Origin: a virus
Taxonomy: Duplodnaviria; Caudoviricetes
Reading direction: 5' to 3' (one strand)
Length of the DNA: 64,000 nucleotides
Virus record (IMG/VR): IMGVR_UViG_2061766007_000925
Coordinates: 6,821-70,820 of that record
The notes beneath the pieces are model-generated. The model saw only the letters and a list, made by a program, of their open reading frames with translations. It made no database searches and had not been told where the DNA came from. Of this stretch, positions 27,500-61,942 are shown one piece after another (position 1 is the stretch's first letter; the number at the start of each line of letters is the position of its first letter). A program made the position numbers and the translations under genes.

Positions 27500-27692
27500 T
27501 TGTTCTCCTTTTGACAATCATTTATATCTGTTATTTGTAATTGCGGATTACAGTTTCCGCCTGATTGTGCCGTCTTTAAAGGTCTTCGGCAAGACCCGTG
27601 GAAGCCCTCAATAACACAGGTGGGGTCGCGGACCAGCTTCCCCACCCTGCATGGAGAGCAAAAGTAGACATAAATCCACTTCCACGTCAAAA

Positions 27693-27721
27693 ATTATATC
27701 ATAATTAAACATATAAGTAAA
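27693..27721 (-). promoter_or_regulatory. extended -10 promoter for scaffold/capsid operon
   Basis: TTTACT-17-TATAAT with TG at the extended -10. Confidence 0.6.
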
Positions 27722-27782
27722 TATTTAGCGATTAACAGCCGTGTTTATTATTATAGTAGATAATTTTTTTTTCAAAACCCCC

Positions 27783-27811
27783 TTGACAAATGAATAAACA
27801 TAGTATATAAT
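27783..27811 (+). promoter_or_regulatory. sigma-A promoter for the sole plus-strand gene, with operator
   Basis: TTGACA-17-TATAAT; TAAACAT-N8-ATGTTTA. Confidence 0.88.
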
Positions 27812-27860
27812 GTTTACATAAGATAAAGATAACACTTAAAACACTTTAAGGAGGCACGCT

Positions 27861-28223
27861 ATGGGACAGTGGTATGGAAACATAATCAATCGAATTGAGG
27901 AGAACAGGCACGTGGATAAGCCCATTGAGGTTGGAATGGGAATGACACAGTATCATTGGTCAGACAGAACAGCGTGGGAAGTCATCAAAGTCAAAGACCA
28001 GAGACACGTCACTGTAAGAGAACTCGATGCAAAATGTATCGGTGGTGCTTACAGCAATGAGTGGGAGCTCTCAAGCAACCCCAATGGTCGCATAATGGAG
28101 CTGGCAATGCGTGGCAAGTATTGGTACAACCTGTATAGAGACATGGGTGGCAAAATTTACCATTGGGAACGTATTAACGTATCTTTCGGACACGCTGATT
28201 ATTACTACGACTATTCATTCTGA
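27861..28223 (+). CDS. hypothetical protein (moron-like)
   Basis: Own promoter, AAGGAGG RBS; GMGMTQYHWSDRTAWEVI. Confidence 0.85.
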   Translation: MGQWYGNIINRIEENRHVDKPIEVGMGMTQYHWSDRTAWEVIKVKDQRHVTVRELDAKCIGGAYSNEWELSSNPNGRIMELAMRGKYWYNLYRDMGGKIYHWERINVSFGHADYYYDYSF

Positions 28224-31219: not shown

Positions 31220-31879
31220 TTATTCAAGTCTTTTCCCCGTAATTTCCTGAGCGAGCGCCTGAACGATTTCATCATCCTCCCAATATTGAGCTCTTACCCA
31301 CACATCACGCACACGGGGTCCAGTTCCACCCCCGATGAGCTTATCTATGTGGTCAACAAGGTTAGGATTTATGTTCAGCGCCTTATCGTCACGATGAAAC
31401 TCCTTCAGCCATAACCTGAAAGCCCAATCATCATTCGCACCACCCTTCCAATGGTTCTCATAGACGGGATTTCCGATGATGAAGTCTCTCACCCATGTAG
31501 CGCTCTCCCGTGCATACTCATTAGGTATGCGAATACAAGGGAAGGAAAACCACATATCCTTTCGGTCAACTTCCCCCGTATGCCCTGGACCATCGTACAT
31601 TGCGCTACTAAAACCACAAACAAGCCCACTGTCAAATTGCTCAGTGCGCTCCTTAAAATCGTGACAAATACACACGTCATCCTGTAAGTGCCAAGTCCCT
31701 CCATCACCCTCACAGGTGAGGAAGGACTTCAGACAGCTTACGAGGTTACCCTCATGCTTGTCATCCATATATATATTTATATCATCTGAAGATATTCCCT
31801 GTTTCTTCATAGAAGGTAACAGGTAGTCCCTCACGTACCACATTCTTCGTGGTACGGCGTGTATCAGATATTTAGCCAT
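31220..31879 (-). CDS. GT-A-fold glycosyltransferase-like protein
   Basis: GTWHLQDDVCIC acidic motif; NDDWAF; NLVDHID. Confidence 0.6.
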   Translation of the reverse strand: MAKYLIHAVPRRMWYVRDYLLPSMKKQGISSDDINIYMDDKHEGNLVSCLKSFLTCEGDGGTWHLQDDVCICHDFKERTEQFDSGLVCGFSSAMYDGPGHTGEVDRKDMWFSFPCIRIPNEYARESATWVRDFIIGNPVYENHWKGGANDDWAFRLWLKEFHRDDKALNINPNLVDHIDKLIGGGTGPRVRDVWVRAQYWEDDEIVQALAQEITGKRLE

Positions 31880-31888
31880 TTTCTCCTC

Positions 31889-32182
31889 TTAGTCAGCGTA
31901 AACGCAATGTCTCCCTGTTTCAACACGACGAACAGCGACACGTTTCCACTCCCTCTTGTCATTGGAGACCTCAAGGAACTCATCACGATAGTAAACATCG
32001 TAGGTAGCACACATCTCATACTCTCTATCCGAGTAGTAGTAATGCTTCTCCATCTCGCATCTGAGGAAATTCCAAACGCCTAAAGTCTTAATCTTGTCAA
32101 CAATCTCTTCAAGAGTAAAACCCTCGCAAGGAGCAAAGCCCCTGTTCTTCATGATATCAACTGTAAGCTCATCTCTTGTCAT
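31889..32182 (-). CDS. hypothetical protein
   Basis: CAGGAGG RBS. Confidence 0.7.
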   Translation of the reverse strand: MTRDELTVDIMKNRGFAPCEGFTLEEIVDKIKTLGVWNFLRCEMEKHYYYSDREYEMCATYDVYYRDEFLEVSNDKREWKRVAVRRVETGRHCVYAD

Positions 32183-32199
32183 ATCCGTTTCCTCCTGTT

Positions 32200-32565
32200 C
32201 AAAGTGTTCTGAGTGTTAAAAGGCTGGGGCTGACTCGTTTCTCCCACTTTCCATCCCCACTGTGGGCTTTTCCTACTATTTGTTACACGGGTGACAGGTC
32301 TTGTATGGTGGCTCCGTTCCATACTCGAATTTACAGTCTTACTACCGCAACTTGTGCGTATCACCCCATCGTCACTTGCTCTGTGCTATGCGTTAGGGGG
32401 TTTGCATTCCTGCTCTGCGAGTCGTGGTCTCCGCATCCCCGTGGGTTTGGACTTTTCCTTGTCAGTTATCCACTCGTTGCTTGAGGGTCGGATTTTCCTT
32501 GTCCTTTTTACAAGTTTTGTCTTGGGTTTATTCTGGGCTTTTCCTTGCCCTGTTCTCTTGTTGTG
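32200..32565 (-). ncRNA. candidate structured RNA/long leader with repeated AAGGAAAA-loop hairpins
   Basis: Follows a consensus promoter; no RBS-supported ORF; four (C/T)A(A)GGAAAA repeats, three in clear short stems. Confidence 0.45.
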
Positions 32566-32570
32566 AGTAC

Positions 32571-32599
32571 ATCATAACATAGTATATAATGTTTGTCAA
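32571..32599 (-). promoter_or_regulatory. sigma-A promoter with inverted operator
   Basis: TTGACA-AACATTATATACTATGT-TATGAT. Confidence 0.82.
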
Positions 32600-32628
32600 T
32601 ACCTTTTTTAAAACTTTTTTATTTTTTT

Positions 32629-33231
32629 CTATCTCCCATGAATACGGGCGTCTATCTCAGTCTGACTTCCCACTCTCATATAATTATAATAGTACATCGG
32701 CATATCCCAATCAAGGAGTTTGGGCTGTTTACTCATAGCCATCCTGTGAAACGTTACGTCTGAAGACATTGTTTCTCCTGAGAAACGGCAATCCTTGACA
32801 AACTCCCGTCTCCAACATTTGCTCCATGTGGCAATCCAATGCTTTCCTGTCGGACGAAGAGGAGTAGCATATCCCTTCCCCTTAAATATGAAAGAGAAAC
32901 AGAGAACGTCAAGCCCAGGATTTTCCTTGAGCTTTTCATCAATCTGTTCAAGCACATACTCGTGTAACCACCAGTCGTCATCGTCCATGAACATGATATA
33001 CTCACCCTTGGCTCTCTCAAGCCCCCTGTTTCGGGTGAGACCATCTCTTCCAAAACCTACCCTCTCGGTTATTGCACCATACTCCTCAGCAATCTTCTGA
33101 GTATTGTCGGTACAACTGTCACAAATCACTATGAGCTCATAATCCTTAAAGGTCTGAGACTTGATACTGTCAAGCCCCTTCCTTATGAACTCAGCCGAGT
33201 TATGTGCCGGAATGATTATCGAGAAACGCAT
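32629..33231 (-). CDS. glycosyltransferase family 2
   Basis: FSIIIPAHNS...YELIVICDSCTD...RNRGLERAKGEYIMFMDDDDW. Confidence 0.92.
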   Translation of the reverse strand: MRFSIIIPAHNSAEFIRKGLDSIKSQTFKDYELIVICDSCTDNTQKIAEEYGAITERVGFGRDGLTRNRGLERAKGEYIMFMDDDDWWLHEYVLEQIDEKLKENPGLDVLCFSFIFKGKGYATPLRPTGKHWIATWSKCWRREFVKDCRFSGETMSSDVTFHRMAMSKQPKLLDWDMPMYYYNYMRVGSQTEIDARIHGR

Positions 33232-34138
33232 TGTAAAGCCCCCTTACTTCATTTGTATAATTTTCCTTATCCTTCTTAAGCAAAGCCCGATACAAGTCAA
33301 AATCTGCTCGGCAATCCCTATAATGGTCAAGAACATACTGTATCTTATAGATTGCGCCGTTTACAGACTCTTCCTTATACATATCAGGAATGCTGTTGTC
33401 CTCATAGTAACCTGCTGTTCCTGTTATACTCGTAAGAATACAGCATCCTTGGGTGACGGCTTCTCTCGGAAGTCTTTCCCTACCACTAAACACGCCAAAG
33501 TCTATATAGAGCTTGCTCTTCCTGAAAATATCTATCAATTCCTGTCGAGAATACCCTTCAAGAGCTTGAAATTTTATCCCAAGCTCGTTCCGGCATCTTC
33601 CCATCACAAGCTGTTGAAAGTAGGTCATCTTGACTGCGATGGGGTTATACAGAACCACATTCCCTCGCTCATTGTTATCCTCATAAGGTTCAAAGAAATC
33701 ATCGTTGAGACAATCGGAGATTTTAATAGGATTAACCTTGAGTACGTCCCTCAAATGCCACATGGCATACGCTGAGTTGGCTATGTGAATGGTGTCGGGG
33801 CGCTCTAAAAACCTGAGCTCCTTCTTCGGATTATGCCAATAATATACATCCACCCCTTGCCAATTCACAGCAACCTGTTTGTCGGCATATTGAGGTTCTA
33901 CTACCTGATTAGCCCAAATCTCAGGGAAAATCACCACCCCGTCGAAGTCCTTAGGCATTTCCGTGACATAATCACATTCGTACTTGGCGAATTCCTTAGG
34001 CTGAGGGTTGCTCTTCGAGGTAGTATAGAGCACCTTTGCATTTGCACCTACACGATTGAGATAGTGCACAAGATTGTGAATGCCCTCTGTTCCTCCTGTC
34101 GCCAAACCACCAGGACAAAGATGTAAAATATCCATATC
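33200..34138 (-). CDS. GT-B (family 4-like) glycosyltransferase (start MDILHL)
   Basis: CPGGLATGGTEGIH; IFPEIW; LYIDFGVFSGRERLPREAVTQGCCI. Confidence 0.8.
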   Translation of the reverse strand, partial: DMDILHLCPGGLATGGTEGIHNLVHYLNRVGANAKVLYTTSKSNPQPKEFAKYECDYVTEMPKDFDGVVIFPEIWANQVVEPQYADKQVAVNWQGVDVYYWHNPKKELRFLERPDTIHIANSAYAMWHLRDVLKVNPIKISDCLNDDFFEPYEDNNERGNVVLYNPIAVKMTYFQQLVMGRCRNELGIKFQALEGYSRQELIDIFRKSKLYIDFGVFSGRERLPREAVTQGCCILTSITGTAGYYEDNSIPDMYKEESVNGAIYKIQYVLDHYRDCRADFDLYRALLKKDKENYTNEVRGLYNAFLDNHSGT

Positions 34139-35453
34139 AATTTCCCTTTCTCGCCCAATACTTTTGAAGGCTGTAGCGGGTAGCGTCGATGCTGTGATTA
34201 TTCTTATCGGGATAAGCGCTGATAAAGTTTCCATCCTTATCCTGTTCATACTCGTAGGTGCTAAACTCAAAATACGTCTTAGGACACCTTACAGGGTCAA
34301 CATAAATATGATTTAAACCTTGCAACCATTTGATACCGTATCTTACACTTTCTGGACCTTTTTCAGCAGGTCTGATAAATGCCCCGTATGCCTTAAAGTC
34401 AGCTACCGATTTTTCCTCTGCGCTATCAGCAATTACCTGTTCCCGTCGGTCTACTAACTTAAGCTCATCATACAGCTCAGTAAACACCTCTTGATTCCTC
34501 TTTTTAAGAGTATCATATTCTGAGAAAATATACAAGTCAAGTGACTTGGGAACAAAGTGCATACGGACAAATCTGAACGGGTCTTTTGCGAATCCCCAGT
34601 CTATTCCATTGTATATATTATCAAAAGTAGTCCACATAGGAGCTTTACCCTGAGGAGTATCCACAAGCTGAGTCATATCCAAAGGCTCACAGTTAGGAAA
34701 TACATCGCCACCTGTTCCTATAGCGACACCGAGATACTCGTGAATATATGCACGGGGGTTTTTCTTCTTCAGGTCAAGAGCTTCCTCAACAAACTGTGTT
34801 CCTAACCAATCAAGGGGAACATCAAGGAAAGAGTTTCTTACCACAAGGGTACTTGAGCCCTTTCCCTCAAGCTCAGCTTCTCTTGCGTATTCGTTCGCCC
34901 AATTCAGCTTGCTTATCGGAGGGTTGAACGTTCTGAAATCCCAGAATAGCGAACCACCACGCATAGTCGATTGGAGTACCTTACGGATTTCATTCTCGCC
35001 TGAGAATTGGTCAAGCTCCTCCCACCATGTTATGCCAATGTACCCGAAGGGTAATTTAACGGACTTAACCTTGTTAGGGTCATCCATACCCATAAACAAA
35101 ATACGCTGTCCTGTCGGAAGATACACAATCGGCGTGGAGTATGTCTTAGGTATGTGGAATAGACTTTCCACTCCCAATTTATAGATACCCCACACCACCT
35201 GTGAATAAATGCTGTTCTGAATTGTATTACCTACCTTACGAAAACAGATTGCATGAATACCAGGATGGGTCATTATCAATAATGGAATGCAGATACCTCC
35301 GAAGAAGGAGGACTTGGTGCTGCCACGCCCTCCTGCTCCGACATAATGGGTATGCCTGTGTTGCATTACATCATCGAGAATGTCATCATACATGGGTATT
35401 ATGCAATCTCTTAACGGAATTTCAGGTAAACTGATTTGGGTTGTCATCTCCAT
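34137..35453 (-). CDS. terL: terminase large subunit (PBSX family)
   Basis: GGRGSTKS Walker A; WWEEL Walker B; TFNPP; GIDWGFAKDP; NHSIDATRY. Confidence 0.95.
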   Translation of the reverse strand: MEMTTQISLPEIPLRDCIIPMYDDILDDVMQHRHTHYVGAGGRGSTKSSFFGGICIPLLIMTHPGIHAICFRKVGNTIQNSIYSQVVWGIYKLGVESLFHIPKTYSTPIVYLPTGQRILFMGMDDPNKVKSVKLPFGYIGITWWEELDQFSGENEIRKVLQSTMRGGSLFWDFRTFNPPISKLNWANEYAREAELEGKGSSTLVVRNSFLDVPLDWLGTQFVEEALDLKKKNPRAYIHEYLGVAIGTGGDVFPNCEPLDMTQLVDTPQGKAPMWTTFDNIYNGIDWGFAKDPFRFVRMHFVPKSLDLYIFSEYDTLKKRNQEVFTELYDELKLVDRREQVIADSAEEKSVADFKAYGAFIRPAEKGPESVRYGIKWLQGLNHIYVDPVRCPKTYFEFSTYEYEQDKDGNFISAYPDKNNHSIDATRYSLQKYWARKGN

Positions 35454-49820: not shown

Positions 49821-49879
49821 ATTCTTTTCCTCCTTGAGTGTTCTAAGTGTTTTAAGTGTTATTGCCTTTCGACAATATC

Positions 49880-49908
49880 ATCATAACATGGTATATAATG
49901 TTTGTCAA
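49880..49908 (-). promoter_or_regulatory. sigma-A promoter with inverted operator
   Basis: TTGACA-AACATTATATACCATGT-TATGAT, near-identical to 32571-32599. Confidence 0.82.
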
Positions 49909-55215: not shown

Positions 55216-55996
55216 TTACTCAAGCATAAAATCTATAAATCTGATTGCCTTGCTCTCACGGCACTCAACCGACTCACAGAGCTGAGATAAAACTCGCTCT
55301 TTTAATTCAAGAGCGGTCTCTTTCGAGTACTTCTGAAGACCCTTAACCCTTACGCATCTCCTGATGCAAACGTCCTTACTAAGATAGTTAGTGTAACGAT
55401 AGTAGTAAGCAACGCACTCGGTCAGGTTCATATCCTTAAGGATACCTTCAATAATGTCACGGATTGCTAAAGCCTTGTCATACATAGTTGTCATTTTGTT
55501 TCCTCCTGTGTTTTAAGTGTTTTAAGTGGTGTGTTCCTTGTTTCTGCTTATATATTAACGCATAATAGAATGTTTGTCAAGCATTTTTTTGAAAACTTTT
55601 CAAAAACAATTTGAGCGCCCCAAATGGAGCGCTCTGTAAGGGAAACATGGATATGGATTAGAAAAGGTTGTTAGTCTCTAAAAGGTCGTCATCCTCCCCC
55701 TGTTCAGGTTCAGACGTGACATCGAACTCTTTCCCGCTGAAGCCCGCAGGAAGAACGTAATCAGGCATGAAACGCATATCAACCTTATTAACATCTTCAA
55801 GGTTGATAGAAACATCGTGCTTGTCGGGAGTCTTAATCTCGACACGTGCGAACTCGTTCTTACCGAACGCTCTGATACGGGTCGCAACTCCCTCAGCATA
55901 TTCGATGTAAATAAGTTTTGAACCGATGCTCAGCTGGGAAGCATTGCTGATAGTGATGGTCTCGTTGTTGCTCTTAATGATGGAAATGTTTGTCAT
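55216..55996 (-). CDS. hypothetical proteins (55216-55494, 55658-55996)
   Basis: Each follows its own promoter and RBS. Confidence 0.7.
55552..55580 (-). promoter_or_regulatory. sigma-A promoter
   Basis: TTGACA-17-TAATAT. Confidence 0.75.
55613..55634 (-). terminator. hairpin terminator
   Basis: GAGCGCTCC-ATTT-GGGGCGCTC then AAATTGTTTTT. Confidence 0.5.
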
Positions 55997-61817: not shown

Positions 61818-61867
61818 AGTTTTTATCCTCCTAAAGGTTTTATAGTTTTCTCGGTGTGTAGCACCGA

Positions 61868-61940
61868 CAGCGCTTGGTGGATTTGAACCACCGAATAACA
61901 GAGTCAAAGTCTGTTGCCTTATCCACTTGGCGAAAGCGCT
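61868..61940 (-). tRNA. trnQ: tRNA-Gln(UUG), no encoded CCA
   Basis: AGCGCTT/AAGCGCT acceptor; GCCAAGTGGATAAGGC D-arm; ACAGA-CTTTGAC-TCTGT; GGTGG-TTCAAAT-CCACC. Confidence 0.95.
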
Positions 61941-61942
61941 AT

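What the first reader, a model, noticed from the sequence alone, without database searches (positions are those of the whole stretch)
32200..32565. CsrB-like GGA-hairpin RNA behind its own promoter
Seen on the minus strand: GGGC-AAGGAAAA-GCCC (32535-32550), GGA-CAAGGAAAA-TCC (32490-32504), GAC-AAGGAAAA-GTC (about 32450-32463), GCA-GGAA-TGC (32404-32413), GTATGG-AACGGAGCCA-CCATAC (32303-32324) and TAGGAAAAGCCC (32264-32276). I count about 14 GGA triplets in ~370 nt. Sister promoters have only ~50-nt leaders. Established: CsrA/RsmA binds A(N)GGA in hairpin loops and is titrated by CsrB-type RNAs. In Firmicutes CsrA controls flagellin and is known to be antagonised by FliW protein rather than sRNA. 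Inference: a phage-encoded CsrA sponge or SD-decoy RNA.
Basis: partly seen in the sequence, partly recalled or inferred. Interest (0 to 1): 0.75.

Follow-up and report, generated by a model that had tools for sequence, protein, structure and literature searches.

The report
New folded leader RNA, rumen phages
The GGA-rich stretch is real and non-coding, but it is one copy of an undescribed, intricately folded RNA of about 240-260 bases that a few rumen phages place right behind strong promoters ahead of unrelated small genes; it is not built like a CsrB-type sponge, and its function is untested.

Summary
The CsrB-like reading does not fit well. I found seven distinct homologous copies on six uncultured rumen-phage contigs. 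They form a new RNA family with two subtypes, and none of the three contigs tested has an Rfam match. The copies share an AAGGAAAA-loop hairpin (P1), a long-range helix CACGGG/CCCGUG, a hairpin with a CAAG-containing loop whose stem differs in nearly every copy, and invariant junctions. The window's subtype also has a GNRA (GGAA) hairpin and an H-type pseudoknot. Compensatory changes support about nine helices. The homologues carry only the chance number of GGA, and no terminator follows the element. It always runs from an extended -10 promoter into a Shine-Dalgarno site and an ORF, and the ORFs are unrelated. The window's first two "GGA hairpins" are 5' remnants of further copies. My best reading is a gene-independent, cis-acting structured leader on a mobile promoter cassette (0.5). 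Rivals are a trans-acting RNA or ribozyme (0.25) and CsrA capture through P1, which matches the CsrA SELEX core (0.12). The scan has noted analogous, different leader cassettes in other rumen phages. One unverified note may describe another copy.

The parts
32600..32628 (-). A/T-rich tract upstream of the -35 box (UP-element-like), shared with the sister promoter cassettes
   Evidence: Read; aligned with relatives.
32571..32599 (-). Sigma-70-type promoter TTGACA-17-TATGAT with an extended -10 TG. It is one of a family of near-identical promoter cassettes in this phage.
   Evidence: 11 of 12 matches, TG present; copies at 49908, 55580 and elsewhere; conserved in relatives.
32519..32550 (-). hp1: the P1-type hairpin GGGC-AAGGAAAA-GCCC plus AAACCCAAG. 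It is a 5' remnant of an A-type element. In L145 the orthologous hairpin is the P1 of a complete copy.
32490..32504 (-). hp2: a second P1-type hairpin, GGA-CAAGGAAAA-TCC, followed by a degenerate (G)ACCC(U)CAAG. It is a second 5' remnant. Its 3' flank is complementary to the SD region, which was seen only in a fold prediction.
32224..32463 (-). Complete B-type copy of the new structured RNA. Features: P1 32463-32450; AAACC + P2 5' strand CACGGG 32448-32437; GNRA hairpin GCA-GGAA-UGC 32413-32404; V1 helix CCCC/GGGG within 32403-32363; hairpin Hd CGC-ACAAGUU-GCG 32358-32346; GUAAGAC 32342-32336; hairpin Hg 32324-32303; P2 3' strand CCCGUG + UAA 32293-32283; AAAUAGUA 32281-32274; H-type pseudoknot (CCCAC/GUGGG interleaved with UGGGG/CCCCA) 32267-32224.
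   Evidence: Homologues. Structure and covariation. Coordinates.
32197..32217 (-). A/C-rich 'standard' leader with a direct repeat of AACACU-like words. The same leader directly follows the sister promoters that lack the RNA.
32183..32196 (-). Shine-Dalgarno site AGGAGG (32196-32191) and the spacer before the start codon
31889..32182 (-). 97-aa ORF of unknown function, the first gene on the transcript. Its relatives elsewhere are not preceded by the RNA.

Best explanation
The stretch is the 5' untranslated leader of an accessory-gene transcript. Its core (32463-32224, minus strand) is one copy of a previously undescribed family of structured RNAs, about 240-290 nt long, carried by a few rumen siphophages of Firmicute-type hosts. 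Shown: the element is non-coding. It always sits directly behind a strong extended -10 sigma-70-type promoter, on the sense strand, and runs without a terminator into an A/C-rich leader, a Shine-Dalgarno site and an ORF. The ORFs and genome modules differ between copies. The fold has about nine helices, including a long-range closing helix, a GNRA hairpin and, in the window's subtype, an H-type pseudoknot, and it is kept by compensatory changes. The promoter-plus-RNA unit is an insertion into an otherwise contiguous glycosyltransferase operon. The first two 'GGA hairpins' are remnants of further copies. Inferred: the RNA acts in cis, as a gene-independent leader module, on the message it heads. 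The 5'-proximal purine-loop hairpin(s) and the compact domain could protect the 5' end and set mRNA stability or translation, or could couple expression to a host factor or ligand that recognises the invariant P1 loop and junctions. The RNA does not act as a multi-site CsrB-type sponge.
For: Seven distinct copies were found: the window (identical in L294 and L295), L145 (two in tandem), L146 (same as L147 and L148), L262, L282 and L348. Core identity is 58-79%. No frame stays open across copies; homologues have 2-7 stops in every frame. RNAalifold gives 47 pairs with 10 compensatory (B type) and 64 pairs with 12 compensatory (A type). Controls: 95.0% and 96.8% of cells are paired, against 28-46% when partners are slid, and 10 and 12 compensatory pairs against 0-3. 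Cross-subtype tests of helices: Hd stems are CGC/GCG, GGC/GCC, CCC/GGG, GCAC/GUGC, ACGC/GCGU, GGAC/GUCC and CUC/GAG. P2 is CACGGG/CCCGUG, changed to CACGGC/GCCGUG in L146. P1 is GAC/GUC, GGC/GCC or AAC/GUU. Pseudoknot stem 1 is CGCA/UGCG, CCAA/UUGG or CCCAC/GUGGG, and stem 2 is GGGGU/ACCCC, AGGGU/ACCCU or UGGGG/CCCCA. Many G-U pairs fit only the sense strand. Every locus scanned (window, L146, L262, L282, L348) has TTGACA-17-TAnnnT with an upstream TG, and there is no sense-strand terminator between RNA and ORF; the L145 promoter was read by eye. Downstream genes are unrelated: a 97/96-aa family, a 219-aa GT-like protein, a 61-aa zinc-ribbon protein, a 113-aa protein after a primase, and a 129-aa protein. 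Relatives have GT2 and the 219-aa gene abutting with no RNA. Homologues of the 97-aa protein elsewhere lack the RNA. The last 45 nt of the leader equal the whole leader of the sister promoters, so about 320 nt look inserted.
Against: There are only seven distinct copies, from related phages, and the structures were derived from the same sequences that were then counted, so the covariation statistics are weak by R-scape standards. Single-sequence folding energy is no better than shuffles (z = -1.2 and 0.0). I found no expression platform: no terminator, and no conserved anti-SD. Predicted SD accessibility ranges 0.22-0.57 in the RNA-bearing leaders against 0.50 and 0.73 in two short sister leaders, too few to be informative. 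A simple stabiliser would not need about 250 nt of conserved tertiary-looking structure. L145 carries two copies and no new ORF, which fits an RNA that is itself the cargo.
Confidence: 0.5

Rival explanations
1. The RNA itself is the cargo: a trans-acting, complex-folded ncRNA or ribozyme. It would be released from the 5' end of the transcript by processing, self-cleavage or partial termination, in the manner of other large 'ornate' phage RNAs, and would act on a host or phage target.
For: L145 carries the promoter plus two tandem copies and no added ORF. The element is large, has many helices and has invariant junction nucleotides. It is strongly U-poor (13-18% U), yet a U-rich tract follows the last helix in 4 of 7 copies. 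An unverified scan note describes an ORF-less promoter cassette that shares words with the A-type copy.
Against: No terminator is called after any copy. Apart from L145_A, which is followed by the second copy, every copy is followed within about 15-60 nt by an SD and an ORF on the same strand. There is no complementarity or target information. No self-cleaving ribozyme family of Rfam matches.
Confidence: 0.25
2. One reading: the P1-type hairpins bind host CsrA, or 30S subunits as an SD decoy. The leader would then titrate CsrA and change flagellin or other CsrA-controlled expression, or would itself be controlled by CsrA.
For: P1 has the form AC-AAGGA-AAA-GU on a 3-4-bp stem. This is the ACA...GGA core of the SELEX consensus, presented in a short hairpin loop closed by AC/GU, as described for high-affinity CsrA ligands (PMC7652899). 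The loop is invariant in 6 of 7 copies and ACGGAAAA in the seventh. Extra P1-like hairpins precede the element in 4 of 6 leaders. In the window, three hairpins lie 46 and 40 nt apart. The host is Firmicute-like (promoter and SD usage; closest cultured TerL in Clostridium perfringens phages). B. subtilis CsrA binds two GGA stem-loops in the hag leader (PMC13443453).
Against: Homologues carry only the chance number of GGA (6 per 255 nt). Each leader has 1-3 candidate sites, against 13-22 in CsrB/CsrC. The first hairpin of L282 has an AAGAGG loop without GGA, and hp1 and L145_A lack the ACA. The GGAA hairpin is a GNRA tetraloop, and the remaining GGA of the window are not conserved. There is no terminator. 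Most of the conserved sequence is a fold that has nothing to do with GGA display. No csrA gene is in the phage, and the host is unknown. AAGGA alone gives only a 5-nt match to an anti-SD.
Confidence: 0.12
3. A put-like or EAR-like processive antiterminator. The nascent promoter-proximal RNA would fold and modify the transcribing RNA polymerase, so that it reads through downstream terminators of the operon.
For: The element is always promoter-proximal, is independent of gene identity and acts on whatever lies downstream. Tandem copies occur. Other scan notes liken different phage leader knots to put RNAs (leads only).
Against: From my own knowledge, known RNA antiterminators are far smaller (about 70-120 nt) and simpler. 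No strong terminator lies between this promoter and the portal gene; only a weak terminator-like site sits at 32138-32122, and the first strong one is at 28337-28301. Sister promoters in the same phage manage without the RNA.
Confidence: 0.08
4. A non-functional relic: a decayed gene, or a DNA-level site such as a recombination or packaging signal, with chance GGA enrichment.
For: Minus-strand frame 0 has only one stop across the leader. The locus is recombinogenic and contains truncated copies.
Against: Frame 0 has no start codon. Homologues have 2-7 stops in every frame. Compensatory changes, including G-U pairs, preserve sense-strand helices across copies only 58-79% identical.
Confidence: 0.03

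Closest known systems
CsrB/CsrC/RsmY/RsmZ-type CsrA-sequestering sRNAs
   Same: Non-coding and transcribed from its own promoter. It carries hairpins that present A(N)GGA in the loop, and P1 matches the ACA-GGA core of the SELEX consensus.
   Different: There are only 1-3 such hairpins per leader, against 13-22 GGA motifs. GGA is not enriched in homologues. There is no terminator, so the RNA stays attached to an mRNA. Most of the element is a conserved long-range fold with a pseudoknot.
CsrA operator hairpins of the Bacillus subtilis hag (flagellin) leader
   Same: GGA-loop stem-loops in a 5' leader upstream of an SD in a Firmicute-type system (PMC13443453).
   Different: The hag leader is short, and its second site overlaps the SD. 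Here the hairpins lie 250-350 nt upstream of the SD and belong to a large conserved fold. Downstream genes are unrelated to flagella.
5' mRNA stabilisers of Firmicutes (STAB-SD of cryIIIA; polypurine stabiliser of phage SP82; 5'-terminal hairpins)
   Same: A purine-rich, SD-like word (AAGGA or AAGAGG) sits close to the predicted 5' end, and in L262, L282 and L348 lies in a hairpin starting at about +1 to +3. The effect would be independent of the gene. The literature was located (references to Agaisse & Lereclus 1996 and Hue et al. 1995).
   Different: Known stabilisers are short (one SD-like word or one hairpin). The SD match here is weak (5 nt). About 250 nt of conserved multi-helix structure is unexplained by this role.
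Structured cis-regulatory leaders and riboswitches (for example T-box and tandem riboswitches; the GP20-a motif RF02991, present in this same phage at 27599-27501)
   Same: 5'-proximal, same strand as the gene and within 60 nt of an SD. The fold is complex, with invariant junction nucleotides. A tandem arrangement occurs in L145.
   Different: No Rfam family matches. I found no terminator and no conserved SD-sequestering platform. Downstream genes share no function.
Large 'ornate' phage- or rumen-associated ncRNAs (ROOL, GOLLD; bioRxiv 10.1101/2024.12.08.627333, listed)
   Same: Large, many-helix RNAs of unknown function carried by phages, some from the rumen. They are accessory and patchily distributed.
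   Different: From my own knowledge, ROOL and GOLLD are about 500-800 nt, are stand-alone genes often near tRNAs, and are in Rfam. This element is about 240-290 nt, is always a leader, and does not match them.
PeSL (promoter-early stem-loop) mobile regulatory cassettes of T4-type phages (PMC2839356)
   Same: Repeated strong sigma-70-like promoter cassettes at module boundaries. Insertion, deletion and replacement polymorphism occurs at them: the GT2 and 219-aa genes abut in some relatives, and promoter + RNA (+ ORF) is inserted in others.
   Different: The PeSL stem-loop is a terminator. Here the promoter is followed by a large folded RNA that is read through into the next gene.

Membership tests
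CsrB/RsmZ-type CsrA sponge RNA | Many (about 9-22) GGA motifs, mostly in hairpin loops, repeated along the RNA | tested here: not met
   The window leader has 17 GGA, but only three sit in P1-type loops and one in a GNRA loop. Homologous copies have 6 per 255 nt, equal to the composition expectation. The CsrB/C number comes from the PMC6546359 abstract.
CsrB/RsmZ-type CsrA sponge RNA | Stand-alone sRNA gene: own promoter and own terminator, with no downstream cistron on the transcript | tested here: not met
   The promoter is present. No sense-strand terminator follows any copy, and an SD + ORF follows within 15-60 nt.
CsrB/RsmZ-type CsrA sponge RNA | Individual site resembles the CsrA consensus (ACA...GGA in the loop of a short hairpin) | tested here: met
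   P1 = AC-AAGGA-AAA-GU on a 3-4-bp stem in 5 of 7 copies. Variants are GCAAGGA (L145_A, hp1) and ACACGGA (L145_B). The consensus is from PMC7652899.
CsrB/RsmZ-type CsrA sponge RNA | Binds and titrates CsrA | not testable with these tools
   The host is unknown. No csrA gene is in the phage record.
Any described RNA family (Rfam 15, 4227 models, including riboswitches, ribozymes, RNase P, ROOL/GOLLD and group I introns) | Covariance-model match | tested here: not met
   The gathering-threshold scan of the whole window gives only tRNA and GP20-a elsewhere. Permissive scans (E up to 10) of the window copy, the L145 tandem and the L262 copy give only chance-level eukaryotic or viral hits.
Metabolite riboswitch (generic) | Conserved aptamer-like fold in a 5' leader | tested here: met
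   Multi-helix fold with compensatory changes and invariant junctions.
Metabolite riboswitch (generic) | Expression platform (terminator/antiterminator or SD sequestration) and a functionally coherent set of regulated genes | tested here: not met
   No terminators. Predicted SD accessibility is uninformative. Downstream genes are unrelated.
STAB-SD / 5'-terminal-hairpin mRNA stabiliser | SD-like word or hairpin within a few nt of the 5' end that blocks 5'-end-dependent decay | tested here: inconclusive
   The first P1-like hairpin starts about +1 to +3 from the predicted TSS in L262, L282 and L348, and about +14 in the window, L145 and L146. TSS positions are inferred from the -10 box only. 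AAGGA gives just a 5-nt anti-SD match.
PeSL-like mobile promoter cassette | Repeated strong promoter cassettes at which gene modules are inserted or replaced between close relatives | tested here: met
   Promoter copies in the same genome. The same promoter sits at the same locus in relatives with different cargo. GT2 and the 219-aa gene are contiguous in L239.
PeSL-like mobile promoter cassette | Stem-loop terminator as part of the cassette | tested here: inconclusive
   A strong terminator precedes the promoter in L262, but not at the window locus.

The most novel reading that the evidence does not exclude
The element is a new class of large functional RNA: a riboswitch for a global host signal, a ribozyme, or a structured scaffold that captures a host RNA-binding protein such as CsrA through its invariant AC-AAGGA-...-GU hairpin. 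Rumen phages would move it around on promoter cassettes to reprogramme expression of whatever accessory gene follows, or to act on the host directly.
Probability: 0.2. Interest if true: 0.8.

Novelty: new variant of a known kind. Interest (0 to 1): 0.55.

Why it matters
Large, many-helix RNAs with invariant junctions are rare, and in the past several have turned out to be riboswitches, ribozymes or RNP scaffolds. This one is absent from Rfam. I also did not find it in GenBank phages, in the pattern scans of IMG/VR, JGI metagenomes and GTDB representative genomes, or in the papers searched. It adds to a growing picture that phages carry portable "promoter + folded leader" modules acting independently of the gene they head. 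Its first hairpin carries the CsrA consensus core in a Firmicute-type setting, where no RNA antagonist of CsrA is known, so a cheap binding test is worthwhile. Practically, the finding corrects the annotation. The stretch is not a multi-site sponge, and only one of the three 'GGA hairpins' belongs to a complete element.

Tried and rejected
- **Rfam:** four scans gave nothing relevant.
- **GenBank phages (blastn):** no match for the window leader or the L145 tandem.
- **80 TerL-related IMG/VR loci:** only the promoter is conserved there, not the RNA.
- **80 loci found with the 219-aa protein profile:** none has the RNA.
- **Triple CAAGGAAAA pattern in IMG/VR:** only coding repeats were found.
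- **Over-specific core pattern:** zero hits in IMG/VR and in metagenomes. It would also have missed L262 and L282.
- **P1 + AAAYCCACGG pattern:** chance hits only in IMG/VR and in GTDB representative genomes. In metagenomes it gave two true copies, L262 and L282.
- **A broader pattern (GTAAGWC...CASCCGTGTAA...AAATA):** gave L348.
- **Coding hypothesis:** rejected.
- **DGR or retron template:** rejected. The record has no reverse transcriptase and no second copy of the sequence.
- **Phage-encoded CsrA:** none.
- **RNase P-like and group I-like resemblances:** GGAAAAGUC, AAACCCACG, GUAAG and AAAUAG words looked similar from memory. I rejected this because the GGAAAAG word is the loop of a covarying hairpin here and no covariance model matches.
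- **Link to the 97-aa gene family:** rejected. Three other family members have no room for the RNA upstream, and L349 and L350 were scanned and lack it.
- **SD-accessibility comparison:** uninformative.
- **Folding-energy z-scores:** uninformative.
- **Covariance model:** not built, because the forecast length of about 250 positions would exceed the calibration limit.
- **Pseudoknot counts:** MAFFT puts the window copy of the pseudoknot out of register. The pseudoknot pairs were therefore read directly from the sequences, not counted with the tool.

Full report
**Setting**

The window is 64 kb of a 70.8-kb IMG/VR virus record. Nearly all genes lie on the minus strand. Around the finding the order is:
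- large terminase, 35453-34137
- a 356-aa protein
- a family-2 glycosyltransferase, 33231-32629
- the finding
- a 97-aa ORF, 32182-31889
- a 219-aa protein, then a 222-aa protein
- the SPP1-type portal, 30160-28319

Identical DNA occurs in cow-rumen assemblies, and dozens of related phages come from rumen-type metagenomes. The closest cultured terminases (43% identity) belong to Clostridium perfringens phages. Promoters and ribosome-binding sites are of the Firmicute type.

All listed hairpins are at the stated coordinates.
Equal-sized windows on the same strand give 8.8 +/- 2.9, and shuffles give 9.7 +/- 2.5.
- The promoter is TTGACA-17-TATGAT with an extended -10 TG.
- Near-identical promoters at 49908 and 55580 have leaders of only about 50 nt.
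- The leader is A-rich and U-poor (38% A, 13% T).
- One frame has a single stop but no start codon.
- Folding energy alone is unremarkable.

**An inserted element**

The sister leaders consist of an A/C-rich repeat (AACACUU-like words) followed by the SD. The same motif forms the last 45 nt of this leader. About 320 nt therefore look inserted between a standard promoter and its standard leader.

In relatives the GT2 gene and the 219-aa gene abut with no spacer (L239). In other relatives the same promoter at the same locus heads quite different small ORFs behind short leaders.

**Homologues**

The leader body is absent from 80 terminase-related loci and from 80 loci carrying the 219-aa gene. 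It is also absent from GenBank phages. Contexts of close relatives of the 219-aa protein, and pattern scans, recovered these copies:

| Locus | Content |
|---|---|
| L145 | Two different copies in tandem and no 97-aa ORF |
| L146 (same as L147, L148) | One copy |
| L262 | One copy after tail genes and a terminator |
| L282 | One copy in a replication module after a primase |
| L348 | One copy ahead of a 129-aa ORF |

With the window that makes seven distinct copies of two subtypes. B comprises the window, L145_B, L282 and L348. A comprises L146, L145_A and L262. Core identity is 58-79%. Every frame of the homologues has several stops.

**The shared architecture**

In 5'-to-3' order:
- P1, a 3-4-bp hairpin with the loop AAGGAAAA
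- AAA(C/U)C
- the 5' strand of P2 (CACGGG)
- a variable domain
- hairpin Hd, with a CAAG-containing loop (ACAAGU in most copies)
- GUAAG(A/U)C
- a second hairpin region
- the 3' strand of P2 (CCCGUG), then UAA
- AAAUA(A)GUA
- a subtype-specific 3' domain

B copies add a GCA-GGAA-UGC hairpin (a GNRA tetraloop), a helix enclosing an internal domain, and an H-type pseudoknot at the 3' end. A copies add two hairpins around the P2 3' strand and end in a long imperfect hairpin.

**Evidence that this is RNA structure**

RNAalifold on each subtype gives 47 and 64 pairs, with 10 and 12 compensatory pairs. In the control counts 95.0% and 96.8% of cells pair, against 28-46% when the partners are slid by 1-3 columns. 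Compensatory pairs number 10 and 12, against 0-3.

More telling, helices proposed in one subtype hold in the other with different letters:

| Helix | Stems seen |
|---|---|
| Hd | CGC/GCG, GGC/GCC, CCC/GGG, GCAC/GUGC, ACGC/GCGU, GGAC/GUCC, CUC/GAG |
| P2 | CACGGG/CCCGUG everywhere, except L146 with CACGGC/GCCGUG |
| P1 | GAC/GUC, GGC/GCC or AAC/GUU |
| Pseudoknot stem 1 (B) | CGCA/UGCG, CCAA/UUGG, CCCAC/GUGGG |
| Pseudoknot stem 2 (B) | GGGGU/ACCCC, AGGGU/ACCCU, UGGGG/CCCCA |
| A-type terminal stem | AGGUGU/ACACCU or GAGAAC/GUUCUC |

The pseudoknot stems were read. Frequent G-U pairs fit only the gene-sense strand.

Caveats: there are seven related sequences, the structures were derived from the same data, and there is no thermodynamic signal.

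**What the 'GGA hairpins' are**

- The third hairpin (32463-32450) is P1 of the complete B-type copy.
- The first (32550-32535) is orthologous to the P1 of L145's A-type copy, but here the rest of that copy is missing.
- The second is another truncated 5' end. Each is followed by a version of AAACCCA(A/C)G, degenerate after the second.
- GCA-GGAA-UGC is a GNRA hairpin.
- The GGA in the 32324-32303 loop and at about 32270 are not conserved.
- Homologues have 6 GGA per 255 nt, the number their composition predicts.

So GGA enrichment is a property of this copy plus its remnants, not of the family.

**Comparison with CsrB-type RNAs**

The family fails the architectural criteria. It has few sites (1-3 per leader, against 13-22 in CsrB/CsrC) and no terminator, and it has a conserved global fold.

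P1 reads AC-AAGGA-AAA-GU on a short stem. That is the ACA-GGA core of the SELEX consensus RUACARGGAUGU, presented as in high-affinity ligands. Its loop is invariant in six of the seven copies (ACGGAAAA in L145_B). B. subtilis CsrA recognises GGA stem-loops in the hag leader and is known to be antagonised by FliW, not by an RNA. Binding therefore remains possible and is untested. Against it, the first hairpin of L282 has AAGAGG, and two P1 variants lack the ACA.

**Position and context**

Every scanned locus has TTGACA-17-TAnnnT with an upstream TG, and the L145 promoter reads the same way by eye. The first P1-type hairpin starts at about +1 to +14 from the predicted start site. No terminator separates the RNA from the following SD and ORF.

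Downstream ORFs are unrelated, and so are the genome modules: packaging/glycosyltransferase, replication, tail-distal and early-like. Other members of the 97-aa family have no such RNA upstream.

The phage has no reverse transcriptase and no csrA, and no second copy of the sequence.

**Interpretation**

Shown: this is a new structured RNA family, carried on promoter cassettes, co-transcribed with whatever gene follows, and gained and lost by recombination. The cassette behaviour resembles the PeSL cassettes of T4-type phages.

Inferred: the RNA acts in cis as a gene-independent leader module. It could set stability or translation, with a 5'-proximal purine-loop hairpin reminiscent of the Firmicute 5' stabilisers cited, or it could respond to a factor that reads the invariant loop and junctions. 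I give this 0.5.

The size and conservation of the fold, and the ORF-less tandem in L145, keep a trans-acting RNA or ribozyme alive at 0.25. The other odds are CsrA capture 0.12, put-like antitermination 0.08 and relic 0.03.

**Earlier scan notes**

The scan has recorded different promoter-plus-folded-leader cassettes in other rumen phages. One unverified note describes an ORF-less cassette sharing a few words with the A-type copy. These are leads only. They gave me the PeSL comparison, whose abstract I then read in the paper itself.

Noticed in passing
window 27501-27599 (-): GP20-a RNA motif (Rfam RF02991, 59 bits against a 47-bit threshold) directly upstream of the scaffold-like gene 27517-26783. 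This is a known phage cis-regulatory motif in the same genome.
   Followed up: no
window 49840-49870, 55500-55545, 27815-27850 (+ strand gene), 32197-32217: All copies of the strong promoter cassette are followed by the same A/C-rich leader, with a direct repeat of AACACUU(A/G)A-like words just before the SD. Relatives show variants (AACUCAAAACACUCA, CCUUAUAAACCUUAUAA). It may be a translation-enhancing or protein-binding leader.
   Followed up: partly
window 32480-32494 versus 32183-32196 (-): The 3' flank of hp2 (AUCCG-AC-CCUC) is complementary to the SD region (GAGG-AAA-CGGAU), and the two pair in the predicted MFE of the whole leader. L146 largely keeps the pairing (8 of 9 pairs). This could be long-range SD sequestration, but it rests on two related sequences only.
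   Followed up: partly
window 31220-34270 and loci L145, L146, L237, L239: The glycosyltransferase cluster between terminase and portal is highly variable between close relatives. GT2 and the 219-aa gene abut in L239. Extra ORFs lie between them in L237. An HNH endonuclease follows the terminase in L146. The 219-aa protein has more than 450 homologues, no Pfam match, and an invariant QDD motif (conserved HLQDDV context) that looks like a GT-A DxD site.
   Followed up: partly
window 61866-61941 (-): A single tRNA-Gln (anticodon UUG), overlapping predicted ORFs in the replication arm.
   Followed up: no
window 27660-27860: A divergent promoter region. A consensus TTGACA-17-TATAAT on the plus strand (27783-27811) drives the only sizeable plus-strand gene nearby (27861-28223). 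It sits back to back with minus-strand promoter-like sites upstream of GP20-a.
   Followed up: no
L145:3424-3982: An A-type and a B-type copy of the RNA lie in tandem, about 15 nt apart, directly upstream of the 219-aa gene with no intervening ORF. This is the only tandem arrangement seen.
   Followed up: yes
L282:2665-2702 (-) and L348:9515-9545 (+): Both leaders begin, at about +1 of the predicted transcript, with a stable hairpin whose loop is SD-like (AAGAGG in L282, AAGGAAAUAA in L348). About 70-110 nt of non-homologous sequence then precede the conserved element.
   Followed up: partly
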